DNA from: Ptychomitrium polyphyllum
Lineage: Eukaryota
Length of the DNA: 64,000 bases
Assembly (NCBI GenBank): GCA_973851085.1
Contig: OZ316775.1
Location: forward strand, 5,332,001-5,396,000
Reading direction: 5' to 3'
Shown: positions 24,431 to 48,920 of the stretch, in pieces
Numbering within the stretch: position 1 is the stretch's first letter
Layout: the number at the start of each line of letters is the position of its first letter
Position numbers and translations under genes: made by a program
Notes under the pieces: generated by a model
Seen by the model: only the letters and a program-made list of their open reading frames with translations
Told to the model about the DNA's origin: nothing
Databases searched by the model: none

Positions 24431-27400
24431 TGTCATGGATGTACATATTGGAAGCATCTAGAAAGGTTCTTAGAAGGTTTATTAAGGCTAAACAAGCTTC
24501 AAAGGAAGTTACCTTGGCTTAGAAAGCTTCCAATGAAACAATTCAAGGTTTCTTGATAACAAAATAATGTAGTAAAAGCTTCTCAAGAAGCTTCCAATGC
24601 TTGTAGTTCTACTAAATATAAAAGTCAAGGTTGAAGCAATCTTTAATTTTAACAATTCATCTCTTAGGGCCTAGCGTAGACCTTCTGGCCTTGTCTTTGT
24701 ACCTTGTTATAGCTCTTTATTTCTAATATACCTTAGACATATATTGTTCCATATTTTAAAATTCTAAATCTTTGTTTTGTCATTATTCTGTCCGTCATAG
24801 TTTATAAAGACTATCATACAATAATATTTGAGCTTAGTCTTTCTTAATAGAGAGTGAAACACCCATATTTTTGAAATTTCAAAGTATTGAAATTTTATAA
24901 ACCAGCTTCAATTTATTACCTTGTTTTAGCCTCAACGATATCCTATGGACGCTTTGTGCGTTGGTTTAGTGAAAACATTGCTCTCAGGACAAGCAATGTC
25001 TTGGTTTGCATCACTTTTTGAAAAGAATTCTTCCATACTTAGTATCTTTGATGCGTTCCTAGCTGCATTTTCAGAAGCATTTGATGACTATGACAAGCTC
25101 CATTCTGCAACCACTAAGATTTTCACTTAGCGCCAAGAGTCACATTTGATGTCAATATATGCATCAAAATTTTGACAACTTGCATGCAACATGAACTGGG
25201 GAGAATAAACGTTAATGAGTCCAGTTCATTGTTGTATATGTGACGAGGTTAAGGATTTATTGCTATTTATGGCAAATACCTAGATACTTAATGAGGCCCA
25301 TCACTCAAGCTTTGAAGTGCAATAAGTGTCTATTTCAGCATAGGTAAGATAAACAAGCTTTGATTATGCCGCGACCATTTTCCAACTTTTCAGTAGTCTT
25401 GGCTCCGTCCATTTTTTATAAGTATTTGGAAGCGGGAGCCATGTAGATTGATACGGTGTGTTTCAAGCTTTTTACTAAATATGAGAAAAAGCAACAAAGA
25501 GAGCAAGGATTGTGTTTGAATTGTGAAAAATCTGGCTATAAGGTTGATAAGTGCCTTTAGAATCCCTATGTATATATTGGATGAGAGGTACAACCACAAT
25601 GCCAAATGCTTTGCAAAAAAATGAAGATGTCTAGCCACAATAGGGACCGTGTGGCTGGATTTGCTTACTTTGCAAGAAAAAAAAGGTCTTATCTTTTTAG
25701 CCCACCTTTCCTCTTATTATACTATACCTATTTTTTTAGGTGTTTAGAAGCTCAAAAACCTTGCTTTGCTAAATTTAGGAACCTCTTCTTGCTTTATTGA
25801 CAAAGAATTTTGAAAAATCCATAAGTTTCCTTTTATTACAAAGCCCTAGCTGGTCCATGTAGAAGTCATAGATGGCCAGCCTTTGTTTTCTAGAGATATT
25901 ATTTATGAAACCAATCCATTAAAAGTAACTTTGAACAACCATAATAGCCAAGTAATGTTTAATGTCATTAAGTCTTTTTTAAGTTTCATCATCCTAAGGA
26001 TTTCTTGGTTGGAAAAGTACAACTTGCATATGAATTGGACATCTTGTAAAATAGAATTTTTGACACTAAAATCTGTAGTTACCAAGCTTAGAGAGGAAGT
26101 TCATACATTTGACAAGTATAGACCAATAAATCTCTCTTTATTAGAACTAGAGCATTTATGAGGGCAACAAAAGATGGCGCTATTACGGTCTATAATGGTT
26201 AAGGTCCATAACTACCAAACAATCAATAACTTGGTAGTTGTTTATTAGAAATACTTGTCAAAAATAAATTAACTATACCACTATTATGATTGGTAACTAC
26301 CAAGTACTATAATATTTGGTAGTTTCTTATTAAAGAGTTTAGATCTAGAAAAAACAATCTATATGAATTCATAGTTGATACTACCAAATGGAAGAGACAT
26401 AGTAATAGTAAGGAATAAATTATAAACTATTATAAAATTGGCCAAAATAGACAATCCCTCATATAAATACATACTCAATGACAAAATTGATAAATGAATT
26501 AAAAGATGGAGTGTATAACTTATTTCATAGGATAAAGCTAAATACAATACACCCTCAATTTTCTTGGTTGAGTGTTTAAGTACTAGATTAAAGATCCTAT
26601 AAAAGTAGATCTACATCTGTTTGTTTGAACTAACAGACTGCTATTACCATCCGGTATTTATTGTTGAAAGATATCTGATAATACCGATAGGGCGAGATTG
26701 GTAGAAAAAGTCTGATAGTACCATATCTAACACTCGATAGCCTAGTAACAAGCGCTTCTTTTACTATGTATGCAACTCCAATGTTCATAGATATAGCTTT
26801 ATCATTAACCACTTTAGAAAAGTATAAGGAATTCAACAATGTATTTAAAAAGAAAAATGAAAATACCCTACTAGAATATTGTCTCTACAACTGTGCTATA
26901 CACCTCTAAGATGGTGCTGAGCCATCATTTGGACCTATCTCAAGTTTATTCCAACACAAGCTTTTGACATTAAGAGAGAATATTGATGAAAACTTAGCCA
27001 AGAATTTCAATATTTAACATTCAAAGTTTCTTGCTAGTGCTTTTATACTTTTTGTAAAGAATAAAGATGGATCTTTACGAATGTGTGTCAATTACCGTGG
27101 CCTCAATAAAATGATGTTGAAGAACTGATATCCATTGCTGTTGATATTTGGGCTTTTTGATCAACTTGGCCAAGTAAAGATCTATACTAAAATAGACCTG
27201 CTAGGAGCCTACAACTTAGTGCGCATCAAAGAAGGAGACAAATGCAAGACAACATTTTGAAGAAGGTATGGACATTTTGAATATAATCTCATGCCTTTTG
27301 GACTTATCAACGCACTCGCCATTTTTCAACATCCAATGAATGATATATTTTGAGAATACCTCAATGATTTTGTCGTATGCTATTTGGTTGATATCTTGAT

Positions 27401-28210: not shown

Positions 28211-28663
28211 TGTTACTAACAAAGTAACCACAAGATAAAGCTCCAGGATTTTAGAATGTGGAACAAGATAAGTCCACGTATATTAGAGGTATAGAGCTAC
28301 AACAAGGAACAAAAGACGAGGCCAGAAGGTTTGAGCTAGATCATAAGAGATGTATTGTCGAGACTAAAGAGCTCTTTAGCCTTGACTCCTATATACACTA
28401 GAACTACAAGCCTTGGAAGTTTCCTGAGAAGCTTCACCTACATTGCTTTGTATTCAAGCAATCTTGAGTTGCTTCCTTGGAAGCTTCCTTAGTCAAGGCA
28501 ACTTCCTTGGAAGCTTTTTAACCCAAAGGTAACTTCTTTGTAAGCTTTGTAAGTCAAGGAAACTTCTTAAATTTTCTAAGAACCTTTCTAGATGCTTCTA
28601 ATATATATGTCTGTGACATCACCTCCCTTTCTAGCTCCAAGGTCTCTAAGGAGTAACAAATGC

Positions 28664-29014: not shown

Positions 29015-29845
29015 ATCTAATATATCAAGCTAGTTTCAAAGAACTATGATAAACTTCAAAATACAAATAATTAGTTTTTAAATCATGTCTGGGACTTTGG
29101 AAACTTATGATCTAGGAATTGCTTTCTCTCTTGCTTAAAAGCCTAAGCATGAAGAACCTTCAAGGTTATACAGCCATATCGAGCCACTGTTCCATTTACT
29201 GCTACTTTTTGTTTGGATGGATGTTGTTAATATAACTCACAAACTTTTATTAGTGAATTGGCAAGATTGTTAGTTAGCTCCCATATACGTTCATTGATGT
29301 CATATCCGTACCAATGTGCCAAGTATTCCAGCTTTTTATGTGTTATTTGTGAGTCAAGCACTTCTTCCACTTCAAATTCATAATGATCGTCAATTTTGAC
29401 CATAGATGGTGGCGGTTGCCTTTGTCCAAGGATACTTAATTCCTTATAAGTCTCCAAACGTGAAACGTGGAAGATGCGATGTACTTTCATTGATGTTGGT
29501 AGTTCCAAACGATATGCCACGTGGTTGATTTGTTTTTCGATTGCAAATGGTCCCAATCTGCGATAGTCCAGCTTGTCACATGGCCTACTAATCTTTATGT
29601 TGTGTCAAAGGAGCCATACCTTCTCACCAACCTAGAATGGAGGTTGTTCCTTCCTTGTTGCATTTGCTGCCGTTTTGTATTGTTCTTGAGCTTCTTCTAG
29701 TTGAGTCTTCATGGTTGTTTGAAGCTCTGCCATTCTTTTCGCAAATTCTTCAGCTGCTAGATTTTCAAATCGTGGAGGCTTAACATATCCATTTTTGGAT
29801 GATGTCCATAATTGGAGTAAAATGGCGTTTGTAAGGTGGAAGCGT

Positions 29846-31382
29846 TGTAGTGATGTATTTAATTGTATAGTTTAAAATTTGAATATTATTTGTTATTTGG
29901 TATATTTGAAAAAGAATATTAGGAAAAATAAATAATTAGATTAAAAAAAGGTTGTGATGAAACCACAATTTATATTTGTCCTGGAGGTGAAATCGCATCT
30001 TGTTTTAGCTCAAGGTAAATATGCCGATTGACTATAGTTTTTCCTGCTTGCCATTTTTACTAGCAATATCAAGTCAAGTCCTATTATTATAACTCAACAA
30101 ATCCGATAAGAATCGAATTTGGACCGGTTTAGCAGCTGGAACTTATCCAGTCAACCAAGTTCATGAATTGGTATCTAATCCTACCTTGACAGTGGTTTTA
30201 TTTTTAACTTGTTTCTTGTTGAATTTCAATATTTTTCTTATTTAAATTTTTTTTTTTTATAGCTTTTTTAGTTTCTATTTTAGATTTGTGAAGGCTTATT
30301 TTTTCTTCTTTATAGTTGGAATTTAGAAGTTTCAACCAAAAGAAAAAAAAGAAAAAAAAGCTAAAGAAAAGGATTCAGGTTGTTTTTTATTTGAATATAT
30401 GATTAAATAAGAATTTGATACAAAAGATTTGGGGTTAATGTGGAGAAATATAGCTGATGCAGAGTGATAAGGGGCGGATGTGGCGGTTTGACTACCGCCC
30501 TCTTCTTCTCTCTCAGCTTCTTTCGCTAGAATAAGAAGGCAGCCCATCTTTGGGTGAACTTTCATAGTATACTTCTTCAAATGGATTTATTTTTGTTGGA
30601 TTTTCTTCTTTTCTTTTTAAACTTTTCAAAAAGCCATCATATGCTCCATTTGGAGTTAGTATGTGGTCGTGGCTTTAGTTTAAATAAAGTTAAGTTAGTT
30701 GCCTTGAGTTTCTGAGGGCAGCTATTTGAATGTTTGTAACTTATTATAAAAAAAACATCTTTTGTAAGTGAAATTTTGAGAAAAAAGTTTAGATTACTTC
30801 AAAAAGATGGTATCAAAAATTGGTGAGCATTGGACTTCTTGAGCAAAAGATACAAAGAAAAATGAAACCGGGGCTTAGAGGGCAGTGTATAGTAGAATTT
30901 GGAGTTGCACAATTTGGGTCATTGTAGATGATTGAAAGGATTTATAAGGTTGATCTTTTGAAAAGGTGTTAATTATAAGATAGATATTATGTACACAAAG
31001 TTTAAAGTTTGAATTTGCGATAAAAGAAGAATCATGAAGTGGTAAAATGATAGGGTTATAGAAGTTGTATCAATGAAGAATATAAACTTTGAAGTTATGG
31101 ATTTTAGAGGGTACTAAGGATTTATTAACTAAAATTTATATATAGCATACTGAATGTTTTAAGAAGGTTTTGTTAAAGTTTTAGATGCTTTGGATTAGTT
31201 TGCTAGAAGTTATGACATGTTTAGCATTTGGGATTTTCAAGGCAGCATAAAGGGAAAATTTAGGTTAGGATATTTGCTTCATTGGATGTTAAAAATAGAA
31301 ACTCTTCATGAGTCTTGACCTTGATCAATTAGATGCTAAAGAAAACCCTGTATTTCCTATAGCTATCACTTTCACCACGACA
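29846..31382. mobile_element. Unclassified TG...CA-bounded insertion of about 1.5 kb (possible large solo LTR or non-autonomous element)
   Basis: Imperfect terminal inverted ends tgtagtgatg / caccacgaca, near-TSD GCGT/GCGC, no coding similarity seen. Confidence 0.55.
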
Positions 31383-34300
31383 GCGCATTTTGGGATAAAT
31401 TATAAGTATGTCCAAATTGTTACTAGGCGCCACCTTGGAGGTGTATGACACAGTTGTTAGGAAGATATTCTGGCAAGATGTCTGCATTTTTCTTTTCAAA
31501 GACATCGTTGAATTCCTTATACTTTTGTAGAATGATTGAGGATGGAACCACAACTTTGAACGTTGAAATTGCATATATTGCAAAAAAAACACATGTCTTT
31601 GCTACTTTCATAAATGCTTTAGCTCTAGTGAAGAGAGGCTTTTTAGATGTATAAGATGCTTCAGCTTCCTCCATAGGCTTAGTAGTTACAGTTTCTAATG
31701 ATGGAAATTCTATTTTGTAGGATGCCCAATTTATCTGCAGGTTGTACTTTTCAAACCAAGAAAGTCCAACAATGACGGAGACATAATGACATTAAATATC
31801 ACTTGAATATTATGATTGTCCAATATAACTATTAATGGATTGGTCTTATGAATATCATCTCTAGAAGATAATGGTCGACCATCTATGACTTCTGCATGGA
31901 CAAGTTTGAATTTTATAATAATATGAAATTTATGGATTTTCAAAAATTCTTCTTCAATAAAGCAAACAGAGGCTCCAAAATCTATTAGAGCAAGGCTTTA
32001 GAGCTTCTGAACACCTAAACAAACAAGTATAGTAAAACAAAAAGAAGGATGGGCTAATAGAACAAGACCTTTGTTTTCTTACGAAGGAAGCGGATTCAAC
32101 TACACGGTCCTTATTGTGGCTTGGCGTCTTTGTTTTCCTGCAAAACATTTGGCATGGTGGTTATACTTCTCATCTAATATGTACGTAGAGGTTTGTCTAG
32201 GCAGTTATTAATTTTGTGACTAGATTTTCCACAATACAAACACAACACTTGTTTCTTTTGTCGCTTCTTCTCATGATCGATAACGGGTTTGAAGAACACC
32301 GCATCAATCTGCATGGCTTCTGCTCCCAAATACTTATTAAAGATAAACGGGACTGCAGCTACTAAAAAGTTGGTATAAGACCGAGGCGTAATCAAAGTCT
32401 ATTTATCTTGTCAACATTGAAATAGACGATTATTGCACCTCAAAGCTTGGTTGATGGCCTCATTAAGTGTTTGAAGGTCTAGCATGGATAGCAATAGATC
32501 CTCAACCTTGTTGCATACACCCCAACAAAATTGACTCATCAACGCTTCTTCTCACCAATTGATGTTGCATGCAATTTGTCAAAATTTCGATGCATAATTT
32601 GACATACAATGTGGCCCTTGGTGCAAGGTACAAATCTTAGTAGTTGCAGATTGAAGCTTATCATGGTCACCAAATGCTTCTGCAAACGCGGTTAAGAACG
32701 CATAAAAGTTGCTAAGTATAGAGGAATTCTTTTCAAAAAGTGGTGCAAACCAGAACAATGCTTGTCCTAAGAGCAATATTCTTACCAACTCAAAATGCAA
32801 AGCGTCCATGGAATACCGCCTAGATTAAAGCAAGGTAATAAGTTGAATTTGGTTTACAAAGCCTCGAAATTTTGAACGCGTACCATCAAACTTCTCTGGA
32901 AGGCTGATTCTTGGTTCTTTGGTCATTCGCATTGAATTTTCGGCTTGAATTTGTCCATAATCTACCAAAGCAGGTCTAGACAATGAAACAGCTAAGTTGA
33001 TTTGAAATAGCAACTGCAGTGCATTTGTTGTTTAACCATTGTGTATGGTTATATACAGTTTTTTGTTTTCCTTGGATAAAGTCTTAGTCTTGATCCTCAA
33101 TACTTCAAGGGCATTAATAATGGAATCTAACTTGGCTACTTTTGAATTAGTTGTATTGGTTGTTTCACTTTCTGATTTAGAAATAAACTAAAAGTAGATA
33201 AAACATATTAAATATGCAAGAAACGAAAGAAAATTCAAGAAGAAATATCAATCTAATGGAAGATAATCCGCAATCCTTAGAGTGCTATAGTGCTTTTGAG
33301 AAAGAAGGGCAATCCGCTTCCTATCAAGAAAGACCAAGTTATGATATTCTTGTATGGCAATCTTGACAAACTGTTACTGATAGAGTATTTACAAGATAAG
33401 GCTTTAGGATTCCAGGATGTAGAACAAGATAAGTATAAGTATATTAGAGGTATAGAGCTACAACAAGGTGAAAAAAACATGGCCAGAAGGTCTGAGCTAG
33501 ACCAGAAGAGATGTATTGTCGAGACTGAAGAGCTCTTTAGCCTTGATTCCTATATATACTAGAATTATAAGCCTTGGAAGTTTCTTGAGAAGTTTCACCT
33601 ACATTGCTTTGTACTCAAGCAAATCTTAAGTTGTTTCTTTGGAAGCTTCCTCAGCTAAGGCAACTTCCTTGGAAGCATCTTAACCCGTAGGTGACTTCCT
33701 TGGAAGCTTCCTAATATAAAGGTAATTTCCTTGGAAGCTTCCTAAGCCATGGCAACTTCCTTAGAAGCTTTCTAAATCTTCTAAGAACCTTTCTAGATGC
33801 TTTTAATATGTATGTCCATGACAAATGCAAGCAATTGTCCATTGATAATTGCAATAGGTATGGTGTGAGCTAAAGAATCGGCTCAATTGGTCAATTTTCA
33901 TCAATTGTTAATTATTAGCATTAATTGCTAGAAAATGGACTTTTAATAGTACTAATTAGAATCATTCTAGTGACTAACTAATCTTAAGGGTGGTTAGGCT
34001 AGTTTAATCCATGAAAAATATCAAGAAATCATGGAAGTTATTATTTATGGCAAAAAAGTGAATTAGTGGTCAGACTTAATTAGTATTTTAGAATGATTAA
34101 TCACAAGGGGTTGTGGTTAGATTAGCAAGTTGAACAAGGAGGTCCAAAAGGAATTTCTTCCAACTAAAAGAACTAAAGATTACTTGCTATAACCAAGTGT
34201 AAACAAAGTACAAAAAAAAAAAAACAAAACATTGCAAGTAGTTAGAACCAAGTCATTGATAAGATACAAAAATTTAGTAAGAAGTTATTATTTAGTTAGT

Positions 34301-37300
34301 GGAAACTTAGATGAATTAGTTGAAGTCAATTGTAAGTAGGTGGAACATAAGTTAAATTAGTATGACCATCCAAGTTAGTGCAAGGAGTTAGAAATGGTTG
34401 AGGTTGGTTAGGATTCCACCTTGTCATTGAGATAAGGCGGCTTAGTTTAAAATTAGGTGCTGGGGTTTAAAATTTAAGGCACAATGCTAAGACATTGAAA
34501 AGTGACTGAAAAAGAGAAAAGGTGGCCAAAGGGAGAAGTAAGAGAAGAGAGTGAGGGTGAAAGTGGGGAATGCTAAAACTTTAACAAGAGATTGCAAACA
34601 AACAACAATAGTTATGATAGTGGAATTTTATAGGAAGGAAGTAGAAAAAGTAAGAATTCTAATAAGCTAAGGATTGTCTAATTTCAATTAAAGACAAGGT
34701 GGTGGCGGTGTTTTTAATAGACGAAGGTTGGCTACAGTTGCAATTCAAGATATTCAACTTTGGAGGAGCAGATCATTGCGCATACAATTTCAAACTGAAA
34801 AAGTAGATCAAGTTGTGAAAATTTTATACATACAAATATCACAAGATTTGGAGCTATAAGGCGTAGATGGTGGGCGATTTGGTGCGACAAGGTCTACACC
34901 TGGCGATTTCATTGCGCCTACTTAGGGTTGAAACATGCTCCCAAATTTAGATTGTTTTTTTTCTTGCCTTTTGAGAACAGGTTTTGAAATTTTGAAAGAA
35001 GTTAGATCTAGTAGTTGCAGTTTTATAGACACCAAGATCATAAGATTTGAAGCTGTGAGGTTCTATAAATACCGAGATCATAAGATTTGAAGCTGTGAGG
35101 CACTGGTGGTTTTTGATTTGGTATAAGGAAATCTTGCTGCCTTAAGTGAAAAGTATTGTGAGATTGAGTAGAGTAATAATTTGGTGGTTAGTGGTTTGGA
35201 CCACTAAATAAGAAAAAATATTTTCTTAAATCAAGGCCAATCAACTGACTAAAGTCTTCTAAAATATTAAGTCATTAGAGTTGTAATAAACAAGTAGTTA
35301 TTTAAGATATAGCTATTTTACTACACTTCTAGTTAGATGTTCACTAATGTATGAAAAAACTTGAATAATTATGAATTTGAGCCTAATCTAATTAAATCTT
35401 ATCTTGGACTACAACGCAACTTAGATAACCATAATCTAATTAAAACTGTGCAAACTAAATTGGCCTTTTGTATAGTGAAGGTTAATTTAGGCTTATATAT
35501 GGGATGTTTTTTGTTCATAAGCACCATGTGTTGTTTGGTTGCAAAATCCTTATCTATGAAGCATGCCATTGCACTAGTGTTTAAAAGAGCTTCAATAATT
35601 ATTACATCATCTAATAATTTAATTTTGATAGAAAATGTAAAGTAAAGGATAGGAGTTGGAAACAATAAGCGACCTTGATTTGATGGTCGTTTATTTTTAG
35701 TGTCAAGTAGCATGGTCTCTTTTGTGACTTATCATTCTTATTTTCCAACAACAACATTGTGCTTTGAGTTTTAAAGTCAAATTCTTTAATTTGGCGATCT
35801 TGCTTTTAAAATCTAGACTTGCTACAATACAAACATAAGTTTTTTTTTAGATGTTTTTTTTTTTTTTTTGAGACAAACGTTTAAATTGGTCAACATCAAT
35901 TTTCATAGGTTCTGGTGCTTGTAGTTGGCTTTCCAATACTTTTGAAGAAGTGGTTGCCATGCCTTGATGTATTAATCGCCATTCCAAGCGTTATTCTTGG
36001 CGCCTCTCAAATAATCTATTATCACATGCTATTGCTTGAGTGATGAATTCGTCCAACGTTTCAACCTTTGGCATTGTGAGTAGCAGGTCCTTCATATTTT
36101 CTTTCAAGTTCCATAAGAATTGTGTGACTAAGGCCTTATCATTCTAATCAAGGTCGCAAGCTAATTGTTGAAACTTTGCAGCATATGCAACCATCGAGCA
36201 TTGTCCTAATTGTAGACTTTGGATTCTTGTTTCACTCATTCTTTTTTAGTTGCTGTCTCTAAAGGTAAATGTCAACGTTTTCATAAAAACATATAAATTA
36301 TTCAACAATATTGAATTCTTCTTTATCAATGATGCAAACCATGATAGTGCATTATTTAATAGAGGAGTGGTTAAAAATTCTACTTGAGTAGTGCCATTAG
36401 GATGATAAAATTGATGAAAATTGAGGAAGAACCTTATTTATTGAATGAAGCTTCTCAACTTTGATCTTGGTCCTTCAAACTTATCTGGCATATTAAGCTT
36501 TGGCTCAACATGGTTTTGATCTAAGACCTATCTTCCAATATTAGCCCCTCACACTCAAATAATTTCTCAATATAAATTTTAAATATGACCATTGAATTCT
36601 TCAGCCTGACAAGTATGTTATTTTATATTATTTGTGATATTGAAGCAAGCAGATTCCATTTGAATAGTATTTAATAACTCTTGAAGGTTTACAATAGTTG
36701 CAAATTTATTCTTTTGTGTTTCTTGTATGCTATCCATACTCAGTCCAATAGACTTTGTAAATGAAGAAGAAAAAGAAGAAAACAAAGAACTAACTTAGAA
36801 GAGGGTAGTCCTCAATTTCTAATGATTGTTTATATTTTCAAGAAAAAATACTATATAATTAAAATTGTCAAAAACAAAAAGGCTATCAATATCTTCAATG
36901 AAGAGTAATGTGTGTCATTTGAAAGATTAGTTCTTTTTAAAAAGAAGTAGCACTTTCTTTTAGTAGAAGAAATCAACTTATGGTGTTAACTTAGAAGAGA
37001 GTAATCCACAACTTCTAAAACACTATGGAATCTTAAAAAAGATGGGTAATCCACTATCTTCTTCAAAGAACCTTAGATCTAACAAAGATGAAGAATAGTC
37101 TTGCCAAATTGTTAAGAACACAAAAAACAAGAAGGAGATATGAATTGGTTTCTAAGAACTAGTTTCCACAGTGCTAATGATTAATAAGAATTAATACAAA
37201 GACTAGAATAAGAGCACAATACAATATGATCTACAATTTGTATTGGCAAGACCAAGGTATACATATTGTCTTGCCTCCTATTTATATTATAACGCTTGTA

Positions 37301-39029
37301 TATCTTAGAATACTTCTCTTTAAGCTTTCCATGAAGCTTAAGAATATTTTAGAAGTCTATGAATCTTCCTAAGAAGTTCCTCAAGGAGGTGGATCCTTCC
37401 TAAGAAGTTTTGCAAGGGATGTAATCTTCCTTAAAAATCTCCCAATGATTGGAATGGCTATAAAAGCATTGAAAGTATTTTAAGAAAATCCTATAATGTA
37501 CTTGTACTACAAAAGGTTCTAGAAGATTTTAAAGATTATATTGCATGATCTATATCCATGATACATGCTGAAAATCAAAACTACTAAACAATCAAATCCT
37601 ACAATATTCTTAATGATTGTTATCTTAATCCTAATGGCTCATTACACATTGTCTTTTTTTCTTTTCAAATTTTCCTCTACCCCATTAGCGGTCTTTATAT
37701 ACGTTTAGCTCCTTCTTCTCCTCATTGCTATAGAGCATATTTTCAACCTTCATTATTTTGTCTACATCTTTACTATTAGATGCTACCAAGTTTAAATCTA
37801 CTCTAATTTGTGGTCATGCTTTAAATTATCTAGTAGTAGGAATTTGGAGGGACTTTATTCTCATACTTGTGAATCAACTCCAACTTAAGGCAACTTTTAT
37901 AGCTACCAATCCTATTGAATTAGAGATTTTTTAATATAAGATTATCAGCGTATGTCTAGCTACCATTGAATCAACCTTTACATCATGCCAATTCCATTTT
38001 CAAATTTTAAACATTACTATTGAATAGAACAATAAGGATACCGTTTTTGGTAAACAATTACATATTACCAGTAGATTTATTTGAGATACTTTACATCTTG
38101 AAGATTGTACAATAACAATTGTACAATACTTGATAACTCTTGATAAGTTTTTAGCAATAATCGATCCTGCATCATGTGCAAAAAAAGCTACTTTTTAGGA
38201 TGTAAACTTGGTAACAAGAAATATCCACATCAAATACAAAACAAATTGTGGAGTCATTTGAAGCCTTCATCCCGATGTACAAGAAGTGGTAGAACTAACT
38301 AGCATTCCAAACTCCATCTTTGACAACCTCCGTAGACACCACTTTATTTGGTAACATAAATTTATTTCTTCCTTCTTTTATGTTAATTTCTGCTCTTATT
38401 CTTCTTCCTTTCCACTTACATCTTTCTCCTGCAATAGTATAAATAGATAACCTCTCTACCAAACCTCCTTTGCCATCTACAATACCGCTAATACTAAAGC
38501 ATTACATCCTACTAAGTTTTACCTTAACTTCTACCCAAACTCCCACTCCTCCTATTACTTCCACCAATTCTTTTCCACTGACTCCCTTTTTCTGCTTCTA
38601 CCAACTACCTTCCCTTCCAACTTATTTCTCCACTTCCCTCTGTTATCATTCCACTCCCTCCTACATTCAACAAAGACATCCTTTATATCAATTACAACCT
38701 TGACAACCTATAGTAGACTATTTAGTACTACATCAACGCCTTACCACTCTTAATAGAGGCTCAAGCTACTTTTGAGTAATTGGTTTTACACGCAAAACCA
38801 ATTTCTGACTGATTCCTTCACCATATCAAATAGCAAGTGTGCACACTTACATTAGAATTACACCAAAGTCAACACCAAATTTAGATTCGTTACCAAACTC
38901 TCTTCCAAACTACACCTTGCTCCAAAGCAATTGTCTAACATTTAGACGTAATCTCTTCCATACCTACTTGATACCAAACTTCAATAATAAGCCCAACAGC
39001 TTACTACTAAATGCGCCCACTATGTTAGC

Positions 39030-39662
39030 TGTTAGAGACACAAGAAACAAGAAGCTTAAACAAATTGTTTCCCAAGAATTAGCTTTTAAAAAACTAATGA
39101 TTCACAAAAACTTGATACAAATACTAGAACAAGGCAAGATTCAAGATGATCCACAACTTGTGTTGGCAAGATTAAGGAATACCTTGTCTTGCCTCCTATT
39201 TATACTATGACGTTTGTATCTCTTAGGATATTTCTAAAGAAGCTTCCTATAAGGCTTAAGAATGTTCTCAAAGTCTAAGGAACCTTCCCAAGAAGTTTCC
39301 TAAGATGTTGGAACTTTCATAAGAAGCTTCTAAAGAATTGGAACCTTCCTTGGAAGTTTCTTAAGGTAGCGGAACCTTCTTAGCAAGTTTCTTAAAGAGG
39401 TAGAACCTTCCTAAAATGATGGAACCTTCCTAGGAAGTTTACTAAGGCGATGGAATCTTCGTAGAAAACTTCCTAAGAAGTTACCTAAGATGATAGAACC
39501 TTCCTAGGAAGTTTCCTAAGATAATGGAACATTCCTAGGAAGCTTCTTAAGAACATGGAAAGACTATAGAGACATCTAAAAGTATTCTAAGAAGCTAATA
39601 TAATATACTAGAAGGTTTTAGAATGTTCTAAGGACTATGTTGCATGATCTGTGTCCGTGACA
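39030..39662 (-). repeat. 3' LTR of the family A element (633 bp, about 9 U3 repeat units)
   Basis: TG...CA, adjacent to the PPT, homologous to 45048-45525. Confidence 0.93.
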
Positions 39663-39717
39663 TCTCTTCCCTCTTTAGCGACAAGTCCCATGAGGAGCTC
39701 TTTTCTTGGCTTGCTTA

Positions 39718-40176
39718 TCACATTTATACAAATTCCAAAATTTGTCAAAGGAGTGAAGCAATAAACTCTGCTCGTTGTTCTTCGTTCACTAGTTCAACTG
39801 GTCCTTGCAAGAAGCGTCGATGGCCACCAGCCAAGACTTTTGTTGTTGAAATGTCCCATTCCAAGATCTGATCTTAATTAAATCCTTCAAAACATCCTCG
39901 AAACAAGATTTTGGATCCTCCAAAAGTGACTCTTCCAATTTCTAATAAGATAACTAGAGCGCGAGCATCTGAATCAAGACTGGAATATGAAGGGCGACTA
40001 GTCAATACTTCTGCACTAGGTTGTACTCAACGTTGGGATGTCCCTCTCATATCTTGACTTAGATCCTCCGTTACCAAGGGCTAAGAAAGTTGAGTTGGCT
40101 CAACAGATGCTGTTATCGATGAAGGCATGGCCGACTACTCTTCACACATATCTATGATAACAGGAAGATTTGACAT
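39718..40176 (-). pseudogene. Extra 3' ORF (ORF3) of the family A chromovirus, about 152 codons, unknown function
   Basis: Single frame from ATG 40176 with no frameshift and 6 internal stops. The C-terminal ~80 aa align with the family B ORF at 28664-29014. Confidence 0.72.
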
Positions 40177-43100
40177 ACTAGCTAGGATCTAAAGATGATC
40201 TATCTTGGAAATAATGCTGCATACAATTGGAGATTTGGATATCTCTCCTTCCTTCTTATACTTGTCTATGAAGGAAAAACTTCTTTGTGAAGCTAACGGC
40301 TATTGATGACACATCATCACTGACCTGGTTTTGAGGATACCTTTGATGAAATTTGCATAGTTTCTCAGATGCATTTGTTACGTTCATTGAAGGTTTCCAT
40401 GTTCACTCATTGATACCATACCCTTGCCAATGTATAAGGTACTCCACACATCCGTTCTTGATGCGTGAATCTAAGATCTCTTCCACTTCATATTCAGTTT
40501 CATTATTGATTTCCAACGGAAAAGGCAGAGGGACAATTCTCTCTAGTATACACAATTTGTTATAGGTTTCCAACAACAATACGTGGAATACTGGATGAAT
40601 TTGCATGCTTGGCGGTAGCTTTAGGCGATAACTAACCGGATTTGTCTGTTTGCTGATTTCAAACAATCCCAGCCTTTGATAGTCCAACTCCTTTGATGGT
40701 CTTTTTGTTTATATATTTTGTCGTAAGAGCCATACGCTATCTCCAACCTTGAACTTTGGATGGTTCTTCCGATGGCGTTTTGCATAAGTTTTGTAACGAT
40801 CTTGAGCTAGTTGTAACTGAAAAGCAATTTCTTGATGGATTTTAGCAAGTTGAGTTGCAAAATCCTTTGCTGCAGGACTTCCAACATACTTCACTTGAAA
40901 TGGATCTACTAGAGGATGATGGCCATAGTTTGCAAAGAATGGACTTTGAGTTGTTGAAGAATGCATCGTATTGTTGTAAGCAAACTCTGCCAAAGGCAAG
41001 AGGTCCATCCAATTGTATTGTTGGTAGTTTATGCTATAACAAAGGTACTGCTTCAAAATTTGATTTATACGTTTGGTTTGACCATCAGTTTGTGCATGGT
41101 GTATTGAAGAAAGGTTGATTTTTACACACAACAGCTGGAATAGAGCCTTTCAAAAGTTGGAAATGAACTGCGGCCCTCAATCGGATACAATATCATTTGG
41201 TAGTCCATGTATGCGGTAGACATGATTTAGGAACAACTTGGCAGTTTCTTCTCCCATTACCGTCATGTTGCATGGAATGAAATGTGCCATTTTGACAAAT
41301 TGATCCACCACTACCAAAATAGAATCCTTAGAATCGGAGTAGCGAAGGTCCGAGATAAAATCCATTGACAAAGACAACCATGGACTTTTTGGCACTGAAA
41401 GCGGATGGAGGAGACCATGAGGTTGGTGTCTTGGTACTTTGGCCCTTGCACAAGTGTCGCATGATTGAACAAAGTCCTTTACATACTTCAACATTTGTAG
41501 CCACCAATAGTCTCTAGCAATCAATTCCATTGTTTTTTTGAATTCAAAATGTCATGCTGCTGGAAAATCATGACGTGCTTGAAGGATCTTCAACCGCAAA
41601 GGGCTCGGAGGTAGGTACAAAAGTGCTTTATAATAAAGTAGGCCCTCTTGGAATTCAAAATCCTCATCGCTATTTGAAGGATTTCCATTGTCTTTGAGGC
41701 GTTTCTTTATATTTGAAACAAAGACGTCATTCTTTAAAGCCTTCCGAATTTTGCCCAAATGGAATGTTGTTGTAATAATGGCTGCTTTTAATTGAAGATT
41801 CTCAGGCTTCAACAAAATAGTCTTTTTTTGATTCAAAACATCATTTCCAAATTGAGGAGCTAAATAAGATCTTTGAGATAAGGCATTTGGCTTACCTTGC
41901 AAGCTACCAAAACGATAGGTAATGACAAAGTCAAATCAGGAAAGTAATAATATTCCACCTTGCTTGACGGCGATTCAAAACGCACGCATTCATGAAATAC
42001 TTCAAGTCCATGTGGTCTGTGTATATCGTGATGGTATGTTGAGCTCCTTCCAATAAGTGTTGCCATTCCTCAAATGCATCCACAATTGCAAGTAGTTCTT
42101 CATCATGGATATCATAGTTGATCTTTGTCGCTAAAAAATTCCTTGAACAAAACGCAAGAGAGTGAAGTCTCTTGTCTTCATCATATTGTGAGAATACTGA
42201 GCCAAGCACAAAATCTGAGGCATCCACTTCCAAATAGAAAGGCTTTGATGGATTTGGATGAATAAGAATTGGAGCCGACATGAATGACTTTTTAAGACTT
42301 TGAAATACTTTTTCCGCCTCTTCATCCCAAATGAATTTTTGCTTCCCCGTAAGACGTGTTAATGGTGCCGCAATCTAGGAATAATTCTTGATGAATATCC
42401 TGTAGAAGTTTGCACATCTCAGGAAGCAATGAACATTTTGAATTGATCTTGGTGTACTCCACTCCATGACAGTGCTTATTTTTTTCTTATCCATATGGAT
42501 TCCTCCTTTGGAAATGGTGTAGCCTAAAATTCAACCGAGGATCAAAGAAAAGGCACTTCTCCAATTTGGCATATAATCCTTGCTGGCGTAATTTTTTCTA
42601 AATCCAGTCGCACATGACATTCGTGGTCTTGTTCATCTTTTGAATATATTAAAATGTCATCTAAGTAGATGACTATAAAATCATCCAGATACTCATGGAA
42701 GATATCATTCATCATATGTTGAAAGACTGCAGGAGCATTAGTAAGGCCAAAAGGCATGACATTGTATTCAAAATGACCATACCTAGATTGAAAAGTTGTC
42801 TTCCATTCGTCTCTTTCTTTGATGCGTACAAGATTGTAGGCTCCCTTAAGATCAATTTTGGAGAATATCCTTGCTTGGCCAAGTTGTTGTAGGAGTCCTG
42901 AGATTAATGGTAATGGATAGCGATTCTTTTTTGTTACTTTATTGTGGCCTCGATAGTCCACGCACATACGTAATGATCCATCTTTCTTCTTTACAAATGG
43001 AACAAGTGCTCCAGCAGGTGATTTAGAGTGTTGAATGAAACCCTTTCCAGTTTTTCATCAATATATTCTCTCAAGGCAGCCAACTCAGTTTGTGATAAGT

Positions 43101-45033
43101 TATAAATACGTCGAAAAGATGGTTGGGCTCCTCCTTACAACTCAATGGTACAATTGTAAGGCTTTAGTAACATGTCCGCATTCTTCATTTCAAAAACGTC
43201 TTTATAATCTTGATATTGACAGGGTATGTTTTGATTAGTTTTTATTGTAAAACTAGACATTGGCGTGGCATAAATGGCATAGATTGGTTCATCCTTTGCC
43301 GCTCTCATGAATGCCTTAGCTCCAATAAATGATGGTCCAAGATTTCTTGTACTTTGACGTCTTTTCCTTAAATCCACACTTCATGAGCGCCAGTCAATGT
43401 CTGGATTATGTAATTCAAACCAAAGAAGGTCCAAAACAATAGGATTTGTTTGGCATTGAATGATGTTGAAGGCAATTTTAGATGCCTGGTCTCTTAAAAC
43501 AAACCTCCAAAAGTTGAGTTTCTTCAATAACGTTGCCAGACGCAAGAAATCGTCCTCAATAACTTCAACAGGTGCGGGATATTTTTTGTTCACAAGCACC
43601 ATGTGATGTTTTGTTGCAAAATCCTTGTTTATGAAACATGACGTTGCACGAATGTTTAAAAGAGCCTTACTAATTATTTCATCATCTAACAACATAATTT
43701 TGATAGGAAATGTAAAGTTTGATGTAGGGCTTGAAGGTAGTATGAAATCTTGATTTGATGGTCGTTTCCTTATAGTGTCCAATCACATGGTCCTTACTGT
43801 AACTGGATTGCCTCATTTTTCAACTCTGCCATTGTGCTTTGAGCCTTAAAGGCAAATCCTTTGATTTGGAAATTGCGCACTTTATGTCCAGACTTGTCAC
43901 AATACAAATATAGGTTTTCTCTTTGACCCCTTTCTTTTTCTTTTGGAGTCAAACATCTAAGCTAGGCAGCATAAATTTGCATAGGTTTTGGTCCTTGTGG
44001 TCGGCTTTCTGATATTCTTGAAGAAGTGGTATCCATGGTTTGATGTATTGATCACCATTCCAAGCGTTGTCCTTGGCGCCTTTCAAATAGTTTATTGTCA
44101 CATGCTATTGCTTAAGTGATGAATTTGTCCAATGTTTCAACTCTTGGCATAATAGTAGCAAGTCCTTTATATTTTCTCTTAAGCCCCATCAGAATTGTGT
44201 GATCAAGGCTTTATCATTCCAATTAAGGTTGCAAACTAATTGTTGAAACTCTGCACCATATGTAACAGCTGAGCGCTGTCCTTGTTGGAGACTCTGGATC
44301 CTTGTCTCAACCACCCTTTCTTGGTCGGTATCTCCAAAAGTAGATGTCAATGCTTCTATAAAAGCATTCAAGTTGTTCAATAATGGTGACTGCTTCTCCA
44401 TAGTGGTGCAAACCACGATATTGCATTGTTTGATAAAAGAGTGGTTACAAATCCCACTTGATTTGTGCCATCAGGATAGCAAAATTGATGCAAACTGAGG
44501 AAGAGTCTTACTTGTTGAACAAAGCCTCTCAATTTTGATCTTGATCCATCGAACTTATCTGGCATGCTAATCTTTGGCTCTGCATGGATTCGACGTAAGT
44601 CTTCCCTTCCAATATTGGCCTCTTGCAATCAAACAACCTCTTGATATAGGCTTTGAATATCACCATCGGATTCTTCAGCTTGCCAAGTATGTTGCTCCAA
44701 ATTGTTGGTGGTATTAAAACAGGCGAGTTCCGTTTGAACTGTGTTTAATAATTCTTGAAGGTCTGCAATAGTTGCAAACCTATTCTCTGATGTTCCAGGC
44801 ACATTATCCATTTCTTAAGTTTGTCATAATTAAAAAGACTATGAATACCTTCAAAGGAAAAAAATCCACGTCCTTTGAAAGAAGTAAGACTTGGTTCTAG
44901 AAGGAGAAATGAACTCTATGGTGCCAGCTTAGAAGAGGGTAATCCACAACTTCTAAGACGCTATGGAATCCTAAAAAAGATGGATAATCTACAATCTTCT
45001 TCAAAGAACCTTAGTTCTAGCAGAGATGAAGAG

Positions 45034-45045
45034 TAGTCTTGCCAA
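45034..45045 (-). promoter_or_regulatory. Self-priming primer-binding site (complementary to the predicted 5' end of the element RNA)
   Basis: TTGGCAAGACTA (minus strand) is the exact complement of LTR positions 45192-45181, which begin 30 nt after the start of the TATA box. Confidence 0.8.
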
Positions 45046-45047
45046 AC

Positions 45048-45525
45048 TGTTAGGAACACAAGAAAGAAGAAGCTTAAACAAAGTGTTTCCCAAGAATTAG
45101 CTTCCAAAGAGCTAATGATTAACAAGAACTTGATACAAAGACTAGAACAAGGCAAGATTCAAGATGATCCACAACTTGTGTTGGCAAGACTAAGGAATAC
45201 CTTGTCTTGCCTCCTATTTATACTATGACGTTTGTATATCTTAGGATACTTCTAAAGAAGCTTCCTACAAGGTTTAAGAATGTTCTGGAAGTCCAAAGAA
45301 CCTTCCCAAGAAGTTTCCTAAGATGTTGGAACCTTCCTAAGAAGCTTCCAAGGAATTGGAACCTTCCTAGGAAATTTCCTAAGATGGTGGGACTTTCCTA
45401 GGAAGCTTCCTAAGAACATGGAAAGGCTATGGAGACATCTAGAAGTATTCTAAGAAGCCATTATAGTATACTAGAAGGTTTTAGAATGTTCTAAGGATTA
45501 TGTTGCATGATCTATGTCTGTGACA
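45048..45525 (-). repeat. 5' LTR of the family A element (478 bp, about 4 U3 repeat units)
   Basis: TG...CA, TATAAATA at 45222-45215, followed on the minus strand by the PBS at 45045-45034. Confidence 0.93.
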
Positions 45526-46009
45526 TTAGCAAGCGTAGAATAGTAATGTACTTCATTGCCAAACTTACTACTAATACTAGAAGGCATGCAAACTACTTAT
45601 AAAAAACCGCCATTGCTTTTATAATGCCTAAACCGCCTTGTAGAAGCAAAATGACATCATCTACCATTATCAACAAAACTTTTTAGATTGGAAGGACACC
45701 AACCCAATGACGGATTTTTTCTCCTTACTTAGTTTCTACAATTTAAATAACAAAGTCTTTAACAGCTTGACAACGGCAACCAATTAAGCAATAATCAAGC
45801 TGCTCAACACTTCCAAACTAATATTTCCTACCACTTCTTGCTTGGTATTAATAATAGCCAACCCTTTTCTATTGTCTTCTTATTTCTTGCAAGCACAAAT
45901 CTCTCTACTTATCTTACAATGCAAGGTCTACATTCTTTTCTTACCTACCAAACAAACACTACCATCTTCCCTACCAATTTTGTAGCAACTTCTATTTGAC
46001 AAATTCCTC

Positions 46010-46338: not shown

Positions 46339-48189
46339 GGTAGTTACCAACCTTAACAACTAAGAATGCCACTTTGAACAAGTCAAAAAATTTGTAGCAA
46401 TTTTTTTTCTATATTAGCCTTTTGAAAGCCATTTTAGTTCTTGAAAACGTTTTTTTAATTAGAATTCCATATTTAGTTGGCTCTTTTGAGATCAACTCTT
46501 TAAATAAAATATGTAACAATACAATGAAAAATGCCAATTTTATGATTCATTTTGTATCAAAAACATGATACATTTAATATTGGTTTGCAATTATTTAACA
46601 AGTATTTTAATTATATTTTATTAGATAGATATAACAATATGAAAAATGTGATAATTCGAAATAAAATATTATGGAATTTGTTCTGGTATTTTCATATAAA
46701 CAGAATTCAAGAAGAAAGTGAATGTAGAAATTTCAATAATATGTAGCATTAATGAAAATGGAATTTTGAAGATTTACCATAATTTCATAATGATAACTAC
46801 AATTTACTTCTGTACAAAGTACACATAACTTCATACAAATAAATATGCTTGAACTTTAGAAGTGCACTTGAATTCATGTTTGTTATAGTAGACAAAAGAT
46901 ACAAGGAATTGGAAAATAAATAAAAATAAATCCGTGTAAAATATTTAAAAATATTTGATTCATAATTATAATAATTTTATTTATCTTGAATATTATTTTT
47001 TAATTAAAATTTAATTAATGAAGTATAGAACATATTTGAAATTTAGTCAAAACTAGATAAAAATCTTAAAGTAATAAGAACAAGGTGGAATTGGAGGATT
47101 TTTTGAAGTTTTATAAATCAAATATAGCTTTATGTGTTTATGTAATTCCTTTGTTATTTTATATCAACTTCAAAAGTTATTTTAATTGGCATTCTATTTA
47201 TTAACACAACTTTTAAATGATTTTGTTCAATTTTAGAAAGAAATCATTAATTATTATATAAATTTAAAAGCTTTATGGATGAACTTACAACTTGTTTTTG
47301 TAGAAATGGATAAAAAGAAAGTTACATACCAATAAATTAAAAAATTTCATTTAGGTCTAAATTTAGCTTAAATATATGCTTTTGAACTTATTCAATAGAA
47401 TTATTGGAAGATAAAACAACTCTAATTTGGCAATCCTAGTAGAAGCTACAAAAAGACATTAAAGGTCTATTAGTTGCCTTTTATAGTGGTATTTTTTTGT
47501 TTAAATCCATTATATAAGCAATAAATTATAATAATAGATTATTTGATTAAAAAAAACGAATAATAAAAAAAATTGATTTTATTTGTTGTTTTTAAGTCCC
47601 TACTATAAAAATTAATGTTCATATACTTAAAGATTTAGAGCTTTTGATTCTATTATAAATATAAATTTTATTAAATGGCATAAATTTCTTATGGAATTTA
47701 AAAATAAGCTGGCAAAATATTGGCAAAGGTTTTTGATGGTAGAATTATCAAATTAAAATATTATTTAATGAATAAAAGCCATTAGGTACTAATATAGATA
47801 ATTTTGAATGAGAAATGATTTTTAACATTATCAACCATCACATAGTACTATTAATTTAAAATAAAAATTGCTCAAAGGTTCACAACTCAAATATAGATTG
47901 CCAAAAAAATGATCTTTAATGGTTTAAGATAAAAATACATCTTGAAAAGAAGCGTTAAAGTAAAACCATAAATGATGTTTTGAAATAAAATTCAAAGAAA
48001 TGAAGACACTTACTAAAAGGTTAAAAAATAAATAAAGATAGAAAAAAACCATCAATTAAAATAACCTCTAATAATAACTAGTTTATATTAATCATTACAA
48101 GAGTAAATTTTTTTGTGTTAAGTTTTTTGTTCAATATCAAGATTTTTTTAATTTATTTAAGTAAAAATATTAATATGCTTCCAAAGTGT

Positions 48190-48920
48190 TGATTGTCTGA
48201 TTGTGCAATTGATCTTCAAAATAAAAGACAACCACCATTTGGGCCAATTTACATTTTATCAAAAATTTAGTTACAAATGACAAACGTATATAAATGTTAG
48301 TCTTACCAAAAAATTTATTCAACATTCATATTTCTTTTGTAAAATGATTATGATGGCTTGTAATGTATGATTCAACAAGCTCATAATTAAAAATCAAAGT
48401 CTTTTAATTAATATTGAATATTTTTAAGAACTTTAAGAACATACAAAAATTGACTTATGTTTGCTTATAGTCTAATTTGCATTAAGAAAGATGACAAATG
48501 GTGTATAATTTTTTGAATAAAGTATGGTCATTTTGAATATAGTGCTATGCATTTGGCATTATCAATAATTATACTTTTTATTAATGTAAAATAAACGACA
48601 TTTTTAAAGAATATCTTGATAAATTTTTAATTATTTACTTAGTTCACATACTAATTGTTTCAAAAAACAAATAAAAACTTTAAAAACATGTTTGAGTTAT
48701 TTAAATTTGACCATGAGAAATTGATCTTTTAACAAAGTTGGAAAAATGTGAATTTTAGTAGTGTCAAGTATAATAGGTAGGATAAGCCATTTTTTTGCTT
48801 GATGTCTTAATGGATCTAAGAAATGTACAAATCATTGTTACTTAAATAACACCATCTATTCTTTTAAATGTACAATGTTTCTTGGATTTTGCAAAGTTCT
48901 ATAAGATTTCATTACAAATG
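48190..48920 (+). mobile_element. Highly decayed Ty3/gypsy reverse transcriptase fragment
   Basis: Residual motifs CAIDLQNKRQPPFGPIYILS, TKIDL, YGHFEY, EYLDKFLIIYL and MDLRNV (cf. MDPxKV). Confidence 0.75.

What the first reader, a model, noticed from the sequence alone, without database searches (positions are those of the whole stretch)
39715..40176. Unannotated third ORF between chromodomain and PPT, conserved as protein across two divergent chromovirus families
Seen: in the full-length family A element, the ~650 bp after the chromodomain holds one sense frame from ATG 40176 with no frameshift. It ends ...RALVILLEIGRVTFGGSKILFRGCF...KVLAGGHRRFLQGPVELVNEEQRAEFIASLL*QILEFV*M*. The same position in family B (29014-28664) reads ...RSLVIVFEVKWAYKSYSEAIFEGRF...QVEGVGYYRWLQRPINHLNQERQLKYIVHTMRQIFNFLQL*. 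Two ungapped blocks (25 and 40 aa, about 9 and 12 identities plus many conservative changes) and the terminal stop line up. Family A's internal TGA and TAA fall exactly on family B's R and Q, as expected from C>T decay. A third partial copy (24316-24430) ends LEFIEMW*. Knowledge: chromoviruses are normally described as gag-pol only, and 3' extra ORFs are known from Athila, Tat/Ogre and SIRE lineages. Inference: a selected accessory gene in the env position, with a variable low-complexity N-terminus, a conserved ~80-aa domain and no clear TM helix (so not a classical Env). Anti-silencing, targeting or movement roles are speculative. Internal stops hide it from the ORF track. I cannot confirm it is absent from the literature.
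Basis: partly seen in the sequence, partly recalled or inferred. Interest (0 to 1): 0.88.

Follow-up and report, generated by a model that had tools for sequence, protein, structure and literature searches.

The report
Hidden third gene in moss retrotransposons
Moss chromodomain retrotransposons carry a small third gene between the integrase and the 3' terminal repeat; it is conserved as strongly as the integrase end, and its protein, which resembles no known family, likely enters the nucleus and regulates the element's own transcription.

Summary
The finding holds. A sense ORF (115-152 codons) lies between the chromodomain and the polypurine tract in two divergent Tcn1-like gypsy elements of the window (40176-39718; 29014-28664) and, as a fragment, in a third. 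The window copies are decayed (6 and 2 internal stops), but intact relatives are common: 336 database proteins, among them 'hypothetical proteins' of Physcomitrium patens and Ceratodon purpureus. Two metagenome contigs show the intact ORF at the same place, one in an element with open gag and pol. Between them dN/dS is about 0.08 in the core, as in the pol C-terminus (0.09). The protein has a disordered N-terminus (Arg cluster, acidic-hydrophobic LxLSQ-like motif) and an ~80-residue beta-hairpin/helix domain. No Pfam, PHROG, NCBIfam, PDB or fold match is significant, and it has no transmembrane helix, so it is not Env. A two-domain version, possibly a domesticated moss gene, exists. The main survey lists no extra ORF in 1,500 Tcn1 elements, but it counted only ORFs of 250 codons or more. 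Function is inferred: a nuclear regulator of the element's LTR (about 35%). Expression and binding are untested.

The parts
39718..40176 (-). ORF3 of element A: 152 codons plus stop, 6 internal stops, no frameshift; conserved core about 39721-39978
   Evidence: 89 of 153 columns identical to intact P0133; profile hit 109 bits
28664..29014 (-). ORF3 of element B: 116 codons plus stop, 2 internal stops
   Evidence: 72 of 116 identical to intact P0019; profile hit 130 bits
24315..24430 (-). 3' fragment of ORF3 in a third, A-related element; frameshifted and cut by an LTR inserted at 24431
45048..45525 (-). 5' LTR of element A (TG...CA), with a 31-bp tandem array of GAAnnTTC palindromes
   Evidence: 39 of 479 compared sites differ from the 3' LTR
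45034..45045 (-). 12-nt primer site complementary to the 5' LTR (self-priming type)
43872..44580 (-). gag of element A (matched part; decayed)
40334..43839 (-). pol of element A: PR, RT, RNase H, integrase, SH3, chromodomain (about 40334-40492); decayed, 12 stops in 1172 aligned codons
40177..40330 (-). spacer between chromodomain end and ORF3 ATG; YAG trinucleotides just upstream of the ATG (candidate splice acceptor, untested)
39663..39676 (-). polypurine tract of element A
39030..39662 (-). 3' LTR of element A; 5-bp target-site duplication GCTAA at 39025-39029 and 45526-45530
29206..29843 (-). integrase C-terminus, SH3 and chromodomain of element B
28211..28632 (-). PPT and 3' LTR of element B
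33372..33823 (-). 5' LTR of family B (13.5% divergent from the 3' LTR; flanks do not form a target-site duplication)

Best explanation
ORF3 is a protein-coding accessory gene of Tcn1-like moss chromoviruses, kept under purifying selection, and its product likely works in the nucleus as a trans-acting regulator that keeps the element's own LTR transcribed. Shown: position between chromodomain and PPT, intact copies in other elements, conservation across lineages only about 40% identical in the core, no TM helix, no known family. Inferred, step by step: (1) it is made from a spliced or internally started subgenomic RNA, because it lies 128-186 nt behind pol and has YAG sites just before its ATG; (2) the Arg cluster imports it into the nucleus; (3) the ~80-aa beta-hairpin/helix domain dimerises and docks on element DNA or chromatin, with the palindrome arrays in U3 as the first candidates; (4) the acidic-hydrophobic N-terminal motif recruits host transcription or chromatin factors. 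It would work like VANC or a retroviral transactivator without being related to them. Confidence that it is a real gene is about 0.97; the number below is for the mechanism.
For: Gene: 336 proteins among 4,339 candidates; 190 representatives at 50% clustering, E<=0.001. Intact ORF at the same position in L001 and L002; L002 has open gag (336 codons) and pol (1,217 codons). Core dN/dS 0.077 vs 0.092 for the pol C-terminus (L001-L002), and 0.08-0.19 with window B. Fixed lengths within families: 14 of 14 compared Ceratodon proteins 137 aa, 9 of 9 compared P. patens proteins 115 aa (shorter or fused cluster members were left out). Nuclear regulator: in 31 non-redundant N-termini an Arg/Lys cluster occurs in 23 (shuffles 6.6), [LVM][ST]Q in 22 (3.6), [LFW][DEQ][LF]x[LMV] in 15 (1.7). 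Maximum 19-residue hydropathy is 0.5-1.5 in 10 of 10 proteins tested. AlphaFold gives a beta-hairpin and a long C-terminal helix, both confident. The domain occurs as an old tandem duplication in P0098/P0134, as expected of a dimer module. All six LTR sequences counted hold GAAnnTTC arrays (3-17 sites, shuffle maximum 2-3), whereas internal regions hold 1 and 3. Precedents: Grande GENE23 is nuclear (PMC7264820, text read); VANC binds tandem repeats of its own element (PMC5735166, abstract).
Against: No transcript, protein or binding evidence was obtained. The core is neutral to acidic (net -6 to +1), unusual for a DNA-binding domain. Models are only moderate (pLDDT 70-72, pTM 0.53-0.56) with an unresolved middle loop. 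The motif patterns were chosen after seeing the sequences, and related proteins are not independent. The short B/A9RUF6 type lacks the acidic-hydrophobic motif. GAAnnTTC arrays are heat-shock-element cores (recalled), so host HSF binding explains them without ORF3. Selaginella SM-Tcn1 has only about 137 nt between pol and the 3' LTR (coordinates), so Tcn1 elements can do without the gene. Element A has more stops in ORF3 (6 of 152) than in pol (12 of 1172; Fisher p=0.012); stop-prone codons are 1.2-1.9 times as frequent in intact ORF3s as in L002 pol, which explains this only in part.
Confidence: 0.35

Rival explanations
1. ORF3 is a replication cofactor: it is packaged with Gag or binds integrase and helps nuclear import of the pre-integration complex, or chaperones single-stranded nucleic acid during self-priming and strand transfer (Vpr-like, or PUR/PC4-like).
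For: Arg cluster in 23 of 31 N-termini; conserved as strongly as pol; the hairpin-loop-short strand-helix order resembles PUR/PC4 modules (recalled), and PUR-alpha and COMM chains appear among weak Foldseek rows for both models; the elements are self-priming.
Against: Those Foldseek rows have E 3.9-6.4 and are no better than unrelated ones; SM-Tcn1 lacks room for the gene; the core is acidic.
Confidence: 0.22
2. ORF3 is a repressor: an EAR-like LxLxL motif recruits TOPLESS/HDAC to limit the element's own copy number, or to damp host defence genes.
For: Several N-termini carry EAR-like strings (e.g. LDLNL, DLELTL, LELSL in P0202, P0006, P0323; the EAR consensus is recalled); strict LxLxL in 6 of 31 vs 1.9 expected, reached by 7 of 1,000 shuffles.
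Against: Most members have W or F in the motif or lack it; these families reach very high copy number (21,502 contigs laid on 1.2 kb in run X1).
Confidence: 0.15
3. ORF3 is a counter-defence adaptor that acts on host proteins or small RNAs (silencing suppressor, or a Vif/Vpx-like bridge to a ubiquitin ligase) rather than on DNA.
For: Small, soluble, non-basic core with a conserved surface motif GHxxWLxGPxNxL and no catalytic signature; wide divergence between families.
Against: Strong purifying selection without a sign of an arms race in the pairs tested; no match among viral predicted structures (0 at E<=0.001).
Confidence: 0.2
4. ORF3 is an Env-like or cell-to-cell movement protein.
For: It sits in the env position and orientation.
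Against: 115-152 aa; maximum hydropathy 1.48 among 10 proteins; no Env or movement family among Pfam matches of 96 members; NLS-like cluster.
Confidence: 0.05
5. The similarity is chance or reflects conserved non-coding sequence.
For: Window copies carry stops; no RNA evidence was obtained.
Against: Score 88 vs shuffle maximum 50; differences fall mostly on third codon positions (11/11/42 in the L001-L002 core) while the adjacent spacers share only 64 of 136 aligned columns; 221 proteins with a full open core.
Confidence: 0.02

Closest known systems
Tcn1 clade of chromoviruses (Ty3/gypsy), incl. PpatensLTR/RLG elements and SM-Tcn1
   Same: gag-PR-RT-RH-IN-chromodomain order, overlapping gag and pol frames, self-priming site, 5-bp TSD, about 6.5 kb.
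   Different: Described as gag+pol only; no extra ORF listed in 1,500 elements at a 250-codon cut-off. SM-Tcn1 has no room for ORF3.
Sense 3' additional ORFs (aORF-3S, env-like) of Athila, SIRE, Bagy-2, Tekay
   Same: Same place and orientation, between pol and the 3' LTR (PMC7264820; Tekay 18%).
   Different: Much shorter (115-152 aa), no TM helix, no Pfam match; one homologous family across many element lineages, whereas SIRE eORFs fall into 19 unrelated groups.
Grande GENE23 and other antisense 3' aORFs
   Same: Conserved accessory ORF behind pol, nuclear product proposed to regulate transposition.
   Different: Those are antisense, in non-chromovirus Tat elements; no sequence link was found or directly tested.
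VANC anti-silencing proteins of VANDAL (MULE) transposons
   Same: Analogy only: element-encoded regulator and family-specific tandem arrays in non-coding DNA.
   Different: DNA transposon, unrelated protein; binding and demethylation are not shown here.
PUR-alpha / PC4 / COMM beta-sheet-plus-helix dimer modules
   Same: Order of secondary structure elements; weak Foldseek rows.
   Different: No significant score (E>=3.9; best VIA Z 5.1, to an unrelated chain); core not basic.

Membership tests
Tcn1 chromovirus (element A) | Ty3/gypsy domain order ending in a group I chromodomain with aromatic cage | tested here: met
   Pfam RVT_1, RT_RNaseH, Integrase_H2C2, SH3_Tf2-1, Chromo in order; EYEVE...YLIHWQGY in the translation
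Tcn1 chromovirus (element A) | Self-priming site complementary to the 5' LTR instead of a tRNA PBS | tested here: met
   12-nt match in A and in L002; none of 8 nt or more in decayed B
Tcn1 chromovirus (element A) | 5-bp TSD, 5.5-9.4 kb, gag and pol in overlapping frames | tested here: met
   TSD GCTAA, 6.5 kb; overlap seen in intact L002; ranges
Tcn1 chromovirus (element A) | RT/IN phylogeny groups with reference Tcn1 elements | not tested
Env-like aORF-3S | Sense ORF between pol and 3' LTR | tested here: met
Env-like aORF-3S | Transmembrane helix | tested here: not met
   maximum 19-residue Kyte-Doolittle mean 0.53-1.48 in 10 of 10 proteins; no TM helix evident in two models
Env-like aORF-3S | Expressed from a spliced RNA | not testable with these tools
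   no RNA holder listed; only acceptor-like motifs seen
PUR/PC4/COMM-like domain | Significant structural or profile match | tested here: inconclusive
   Foldseek 0 matches at E<=0.001; VIA best Z 4.2 and 5.1; moderate models
PUR/PC4/COMM-like domain | Homodimer | not tested
VANC-type anti-silencing protein | Binds motifs in its own element and causes loss of methylation | not testable with these tools
   needs ChIP/EMSA and methylomes
EAR-motif repressor | LxLxL or DLNxxP motif | tested here: inconclusive
   strict LxLxL in 6 of 31; looser motif in 15 of 31

The most novel reading that the evidence does not exclude
ORF3 is a sequence-specific trans-activator or anti-silencing protein of a plant LTR retrotransposon, with a fold not yet in the PDB; it binds the palindrome arrays of its own LTR, helped Tcn1 elements take over moss genomes, and was domesticated by mosses as a two-domain host gene.
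Probability: 0.2. Interest if true: 0.85.

Novelty: new variant of a known kind. Interest (0 to 1): 0.62.

Why it matters
Chromodomain gypsy elements make up much of moss genomes (RLG1 alone is almost half of P. patens class I sequence; PMC7466625) and are treated as gag-pol only. A conserved third gene means an unknown protein takes part in their life cycle. The role of extra ORFs in plant LTR retrotransposons is an open question (PMC7264820). Here the ORF is small, soluble, intact in many copies and present in two P. patens families, in a plant where gene tagging is routine, so the question becomes testable. It also explains a set of orphan 'hypothetical proteins' in moss annotations, and points to a possible domesticated gene (Ceratodon KC19_5G095800).

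Tried and rejected
No whole genome is held for the window. Sequencing runs: 4 of 5 listed hold the stretch; no RNA holder listed, which says nothing about expression. Family libraries: no convincing match in Pfam (13 and 96 members; best E 0.035), PHROGs (109 members; best E 0.009) or NCBIfam (best E 0.011). PDB by sequence: 1 match at E 0.89 and then 0. Fold searches: no match at E<=0.001 in PDB or BFVD; VIA best Z 4.2 and 5.1; this does not show that the fold is new. ESM Atlas: nothing usable for P0133; only its probable own cluster (52 members, Streptophyta, score 0.89) for P0022. No relatives in prokaryote genomes (0 of 157 pattern hits), IMG/VR (0 of 46; the one DNA-pattern hit L004 is unrelated) or GenBank phages. 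L003, 1 of 3 loci (E 1e-5), is a bacterial-looking contig without retroelement context and was dropped. An attempt to obtain PC4 and DUF3276 sequences for a profile comparison returned no loci. Covariation analysis (277 rows, effective number 124) was at noise level. L002 is not the RLG1 transcript family as far as the first 400 letters of that assembly and its primers show; whether RLG1 itself carries ORF3 is not established. dS is saturated in all pairs with window A (pS 0.77-0.83), so no ratio is quoted for them. Earlier scan findings: none.

Full report
1. Observation. A has six internal stops and B two. tblastn within the window aligns A and B over 84 columns at 25% identity, E=3.5e-5, while blastn sees only the PPT and LTR start. 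The local alignment score of 88 exceeds all 10,000 shuffles (mean 24.3, max 50) and the other 17 frame pairs (max 44). Copy C (24315-24430) is 78% identical to A in DNA, frameshifted, and cut by an LTR that starts at 24431.

2. The elements. Element A is full length: LTRs 45525-45048 and 39662-39030, target-site duplication GCTAA, 39 of 479 LTR sites divergent. Pfam gives RT, RNase H, integrase zinc finger, SH3 and chromodomain in gypsy order. A 12-nt stretch behind the 5' LTR is complementary to that LTR. Neumann 2019 gives self-priming, overlapping gag/pol frames, 5-bp TSD and a mean of 6,357 bp for Tcn1 (supplementary table), so A fits that clade on structure; no RT tree against references was made. 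B is rearranged: pol residues about 300-1000 are missing and the flanks do not match. Neighbouring YTH and PMR5/PC-esterase genes mark a land plant; a moss is inferred from where the homologues occur. Family A is very abundant in the runs that hold it (21,502 contigs laid on 1.2 kb in X1). That table shows 40 of 281 difference rows; two of A's stop codons (32 and 151) are among them, with 93-94% of X1 depth differing from the window copy. The other four stops are not in the shown rows.

3. Intact relatives. A profile of A and B found 4 open proteins among 44 candidates. The next round found 336 among 4,339 at E<=0.1, 120 listed, and a search of 1.84 billion representatives found 190 at E<=0.001, 150 listed. 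Of 327 proteins then held, 323 hit the core profile and 221 have a full, stop-free core. Organism names that appear are Physcomitrium patens (two families: A9RUF6-like, 115 aa; A9U498-like, 140 aa) and Ceratodon purpureus (137 aa, many loci), plus two bacterial MAG labels that are probably moss contamination. P0133 (151 aa) matches window A at 89 of 153 columns along its whole length; P0019 matches B at 72 of 116. A tree of 45 cores places A with P0133 (99/98) and B with the A9RUF6 type (96/92), far apart; cores of different families are about 40% identical.

4. Position and selection. Genomic context was available for only two relatives. In L001 and L002 (2 of 3 loci; L003 was dropped as unrelated) the intact ORF starts 128-130 nt after the chromodomain stop and ends shortly before the PPT and LTR. 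L002 is a 5,925-nt contig with overlapping ends that holds one LTR, open gag (336 codons), open pol (1,217 codons) and a protein identical to A9RUF6. Nei-Gojobori estimates for L001-L002: core 81 codons, dN 0.153, dS 1.99, ratio 0.077; whole ORF 0.109; pol C-terminus control 105 codons, ratio 0.092. With window B the core gives 0.08-0.19. dS is near saturation, so the ratios are approximate; pairs with A are saturated. Against the reading: A's ORF3 has 6 stops in 152 codons versus 12 in 1,172 for its pol (p=0.012); B shows no excess (2 of 116 vs 19 of 877). Stop-prone codons are richer in intact ORF3s (0.148 and 0.095 vs 0.080 in L002 pol), a partial explanation.

5. The protein. The N-terminal 30-70 residues are variable and predicted disordered. 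In 31 non-redundant members an Arg/Lys cluster occurs in 23 (shuffles 6.6), [LVM][ST]Q in 22 (3.6), [LFW][DEQ][LF]x[LMV] in 15 (1.7) and strict LxLxL in 6 (1.9); the patterns were picked after seeing the sequences, and members are related. The core has R[AS]LVIxLE, FEGxFxN, GHxxWLxGPxNxL and a helix ending IxxFL; it is neutral to acidic and has no TM segment. Two AlphaFold models (pLDDT 70 and 72.5; pTM 0.53 and 0.56) agree on a long beta-hairpin, a poorly resolved loop, a short strand and a 18-20-residue helix. Nothing significant was found in Pfam, PHROGs, NCBIfam, PDB sequences, PDB folds or BFVD. PUR-alpha and COMM chains occur among the weak Foldseek rows of both models (E 3.9-6.4); this is a lead only. 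Two proteins carry the core twice: Ceratodon KAG0576639.1 (231 aa) and a 299-aa protein, 70% identical to each other. Their first domains group together and their second domains group together (99/89 and 100/99), each cluster has one member, and a search for more found none among 7,998 scored candidates. That suits a single-copy domesticated gene, but its genomic context could not be seen.

6. How it likely works. A ribosome finishing pol would not normally reach an ATG 128-186 nt further on, so a subgenomic RNA is inferred; all four spacers examined have YAG sites within about 25 nt of the ATG, a weak sign. The Arg cluster suggests nuclear import. An isolated hairpin and long helix, and the tandem duplication, suggest a dimer. 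The LTRs carry family-specific tandem arrays of GAAnnTTC palindromes (10 and 17 sites in A's LTRs, 15 in L002; shuffle maximum 2-3; internal regions 1 and 3). I therefore rank first a nuclear trans-regulator that keeps the cognate LTR active (0.35), ahead of a replication/import cofactor (0.22), a counter-defence adaptor (0.20), an EAR-type repressor (0.15) and Env/movement (0.05). The arrays also read as heat-shock elements (recalled), which host HSFs could bind without ORF3. None of these steps was tested.

7. What is known. Neumann 2019 (PMC6317226; passages, section 9 and additional file 5 read; files 1 and 3 too large to read) counted extra ORFs of at least 250 codons and lists none for 1,500 Tcn1 elements, but 18% 3' sense ORFs for Tekay. 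Novikova 2010 (PMC2864245; passages, section 6, one supplement) describes SM-Tcn1 with gag and pol only; its coordinates leave about 137 nt before the 3' LTR. Its Figure 3 legend mentions an 'additional ORF with unknown function' in some element of a mostly fungal set, which I could not identify; its .DOC supplements were unreadable. Vicient and Casacuberta 2020 (PMC7264820; parts 1-2 of 3 read) review additional ORFs and name no moss or Tcn1 case in those parts. Vendrell-Mir 2020 (PMC7466625; passages and tables, sequences cut at 400 letters) has no occurrence of 'ORF' in its main text. Passages of PMC3350952, PMC9033089, PMC11899658 and PMC3729371, and the abstract of PMC5735166, were also seen. 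Ten searches returned no paper describing this ORF. Novikova 2008, Vives 2016, Lang 2018, Steinbauerova 2011 and Repbase were not seen and could mention it.

8. Verdict. A real, selected, apparently undescribed accessory gene family of moss Tcn1-like chromoviruses. Extra ORFs behind pol are a known kind of feature; this protein family, its presence in this clade and its possible domestication are new as far as I could check. New variant of a known kind; interest 0.62.

Noticed in passing
proteins P0098 (Ceratodon KAG0576639.1) and P0134: Two tandem copies of the ORF3 core, 70% identical between two sources, single-member clusters; candidate domesticated moss gene.
   Followed up: partly
window 39279-39560, 45298-45415, 23670-23879, 28472-28566, 33635-33775; L002 670-900: LTR U3 regions are built of 30-31-bp (shorter in L002) tandem units rich in GAAnnTTC palindromes, like heat-shock elements; L002 has 6 and L001 3 perfect three-unit sites.
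   Followed up: partly
L002 1-5925: Contig with 143-nt overlapping ends and one LTR: a one-LTR circle or a collapsed tandem/multi-copy assembly of an intact element. Behind the self-priming site lies TGGTATCAGAGC, which resembles a tRNA-Met primer site (recalled), then an 86-bp direct repeat.
   Followed up: no
window 23242-24850: Nest of LTRs: a solo A-type LTR (23559-24129, + strand) sits inside the 3' LTR of copy C, whose ORF3 is cut by a B-type element starting at 24431.
   Followed up: partly
window 29844-31378: 1.5 kb of AT-rich (30% GC) sequence replaces RT-integrase in element B; no match elsewhere in the window or to L002 proteins.
   Followed up: partly
window 35501-37561: Another truncated Tcn1-like element (LTR about 37110-37561, gag 36506-35871), 77% identical to A over 1.2 kb.
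   Followed up: no
window 48151-48908: Heavily decayed RT fragment (23 stops in about 276 codons) in very AT-rich DNA.
   Followed up: no
window 3074-3724 (-) and 52948-54936 (-): Host genes: a YTH-domain protein and a PMR5N/PC-esterase (trichome-birefringence-like) gene flank the retroelement island.
   Followed up: no
Ceratodon cluster of P0084: The same 137-aa protein is annotated under adjacent gene ids (e.g. M758_4G168000/168100, KC19_1G302500/302600), which may reflect tandem elements or several transcript models.
   Followed up: no
proteins P0075 and P0324: ORF3 homologues labelled as Gaiellaceae and Bacilli MAG proteins in NCBI; probably moss DNA binned into bacterial genomes.
   Followed up: no
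window 56119-56330: CT/CA microsatellite-like array of about 200 bp.
   Followed up: no
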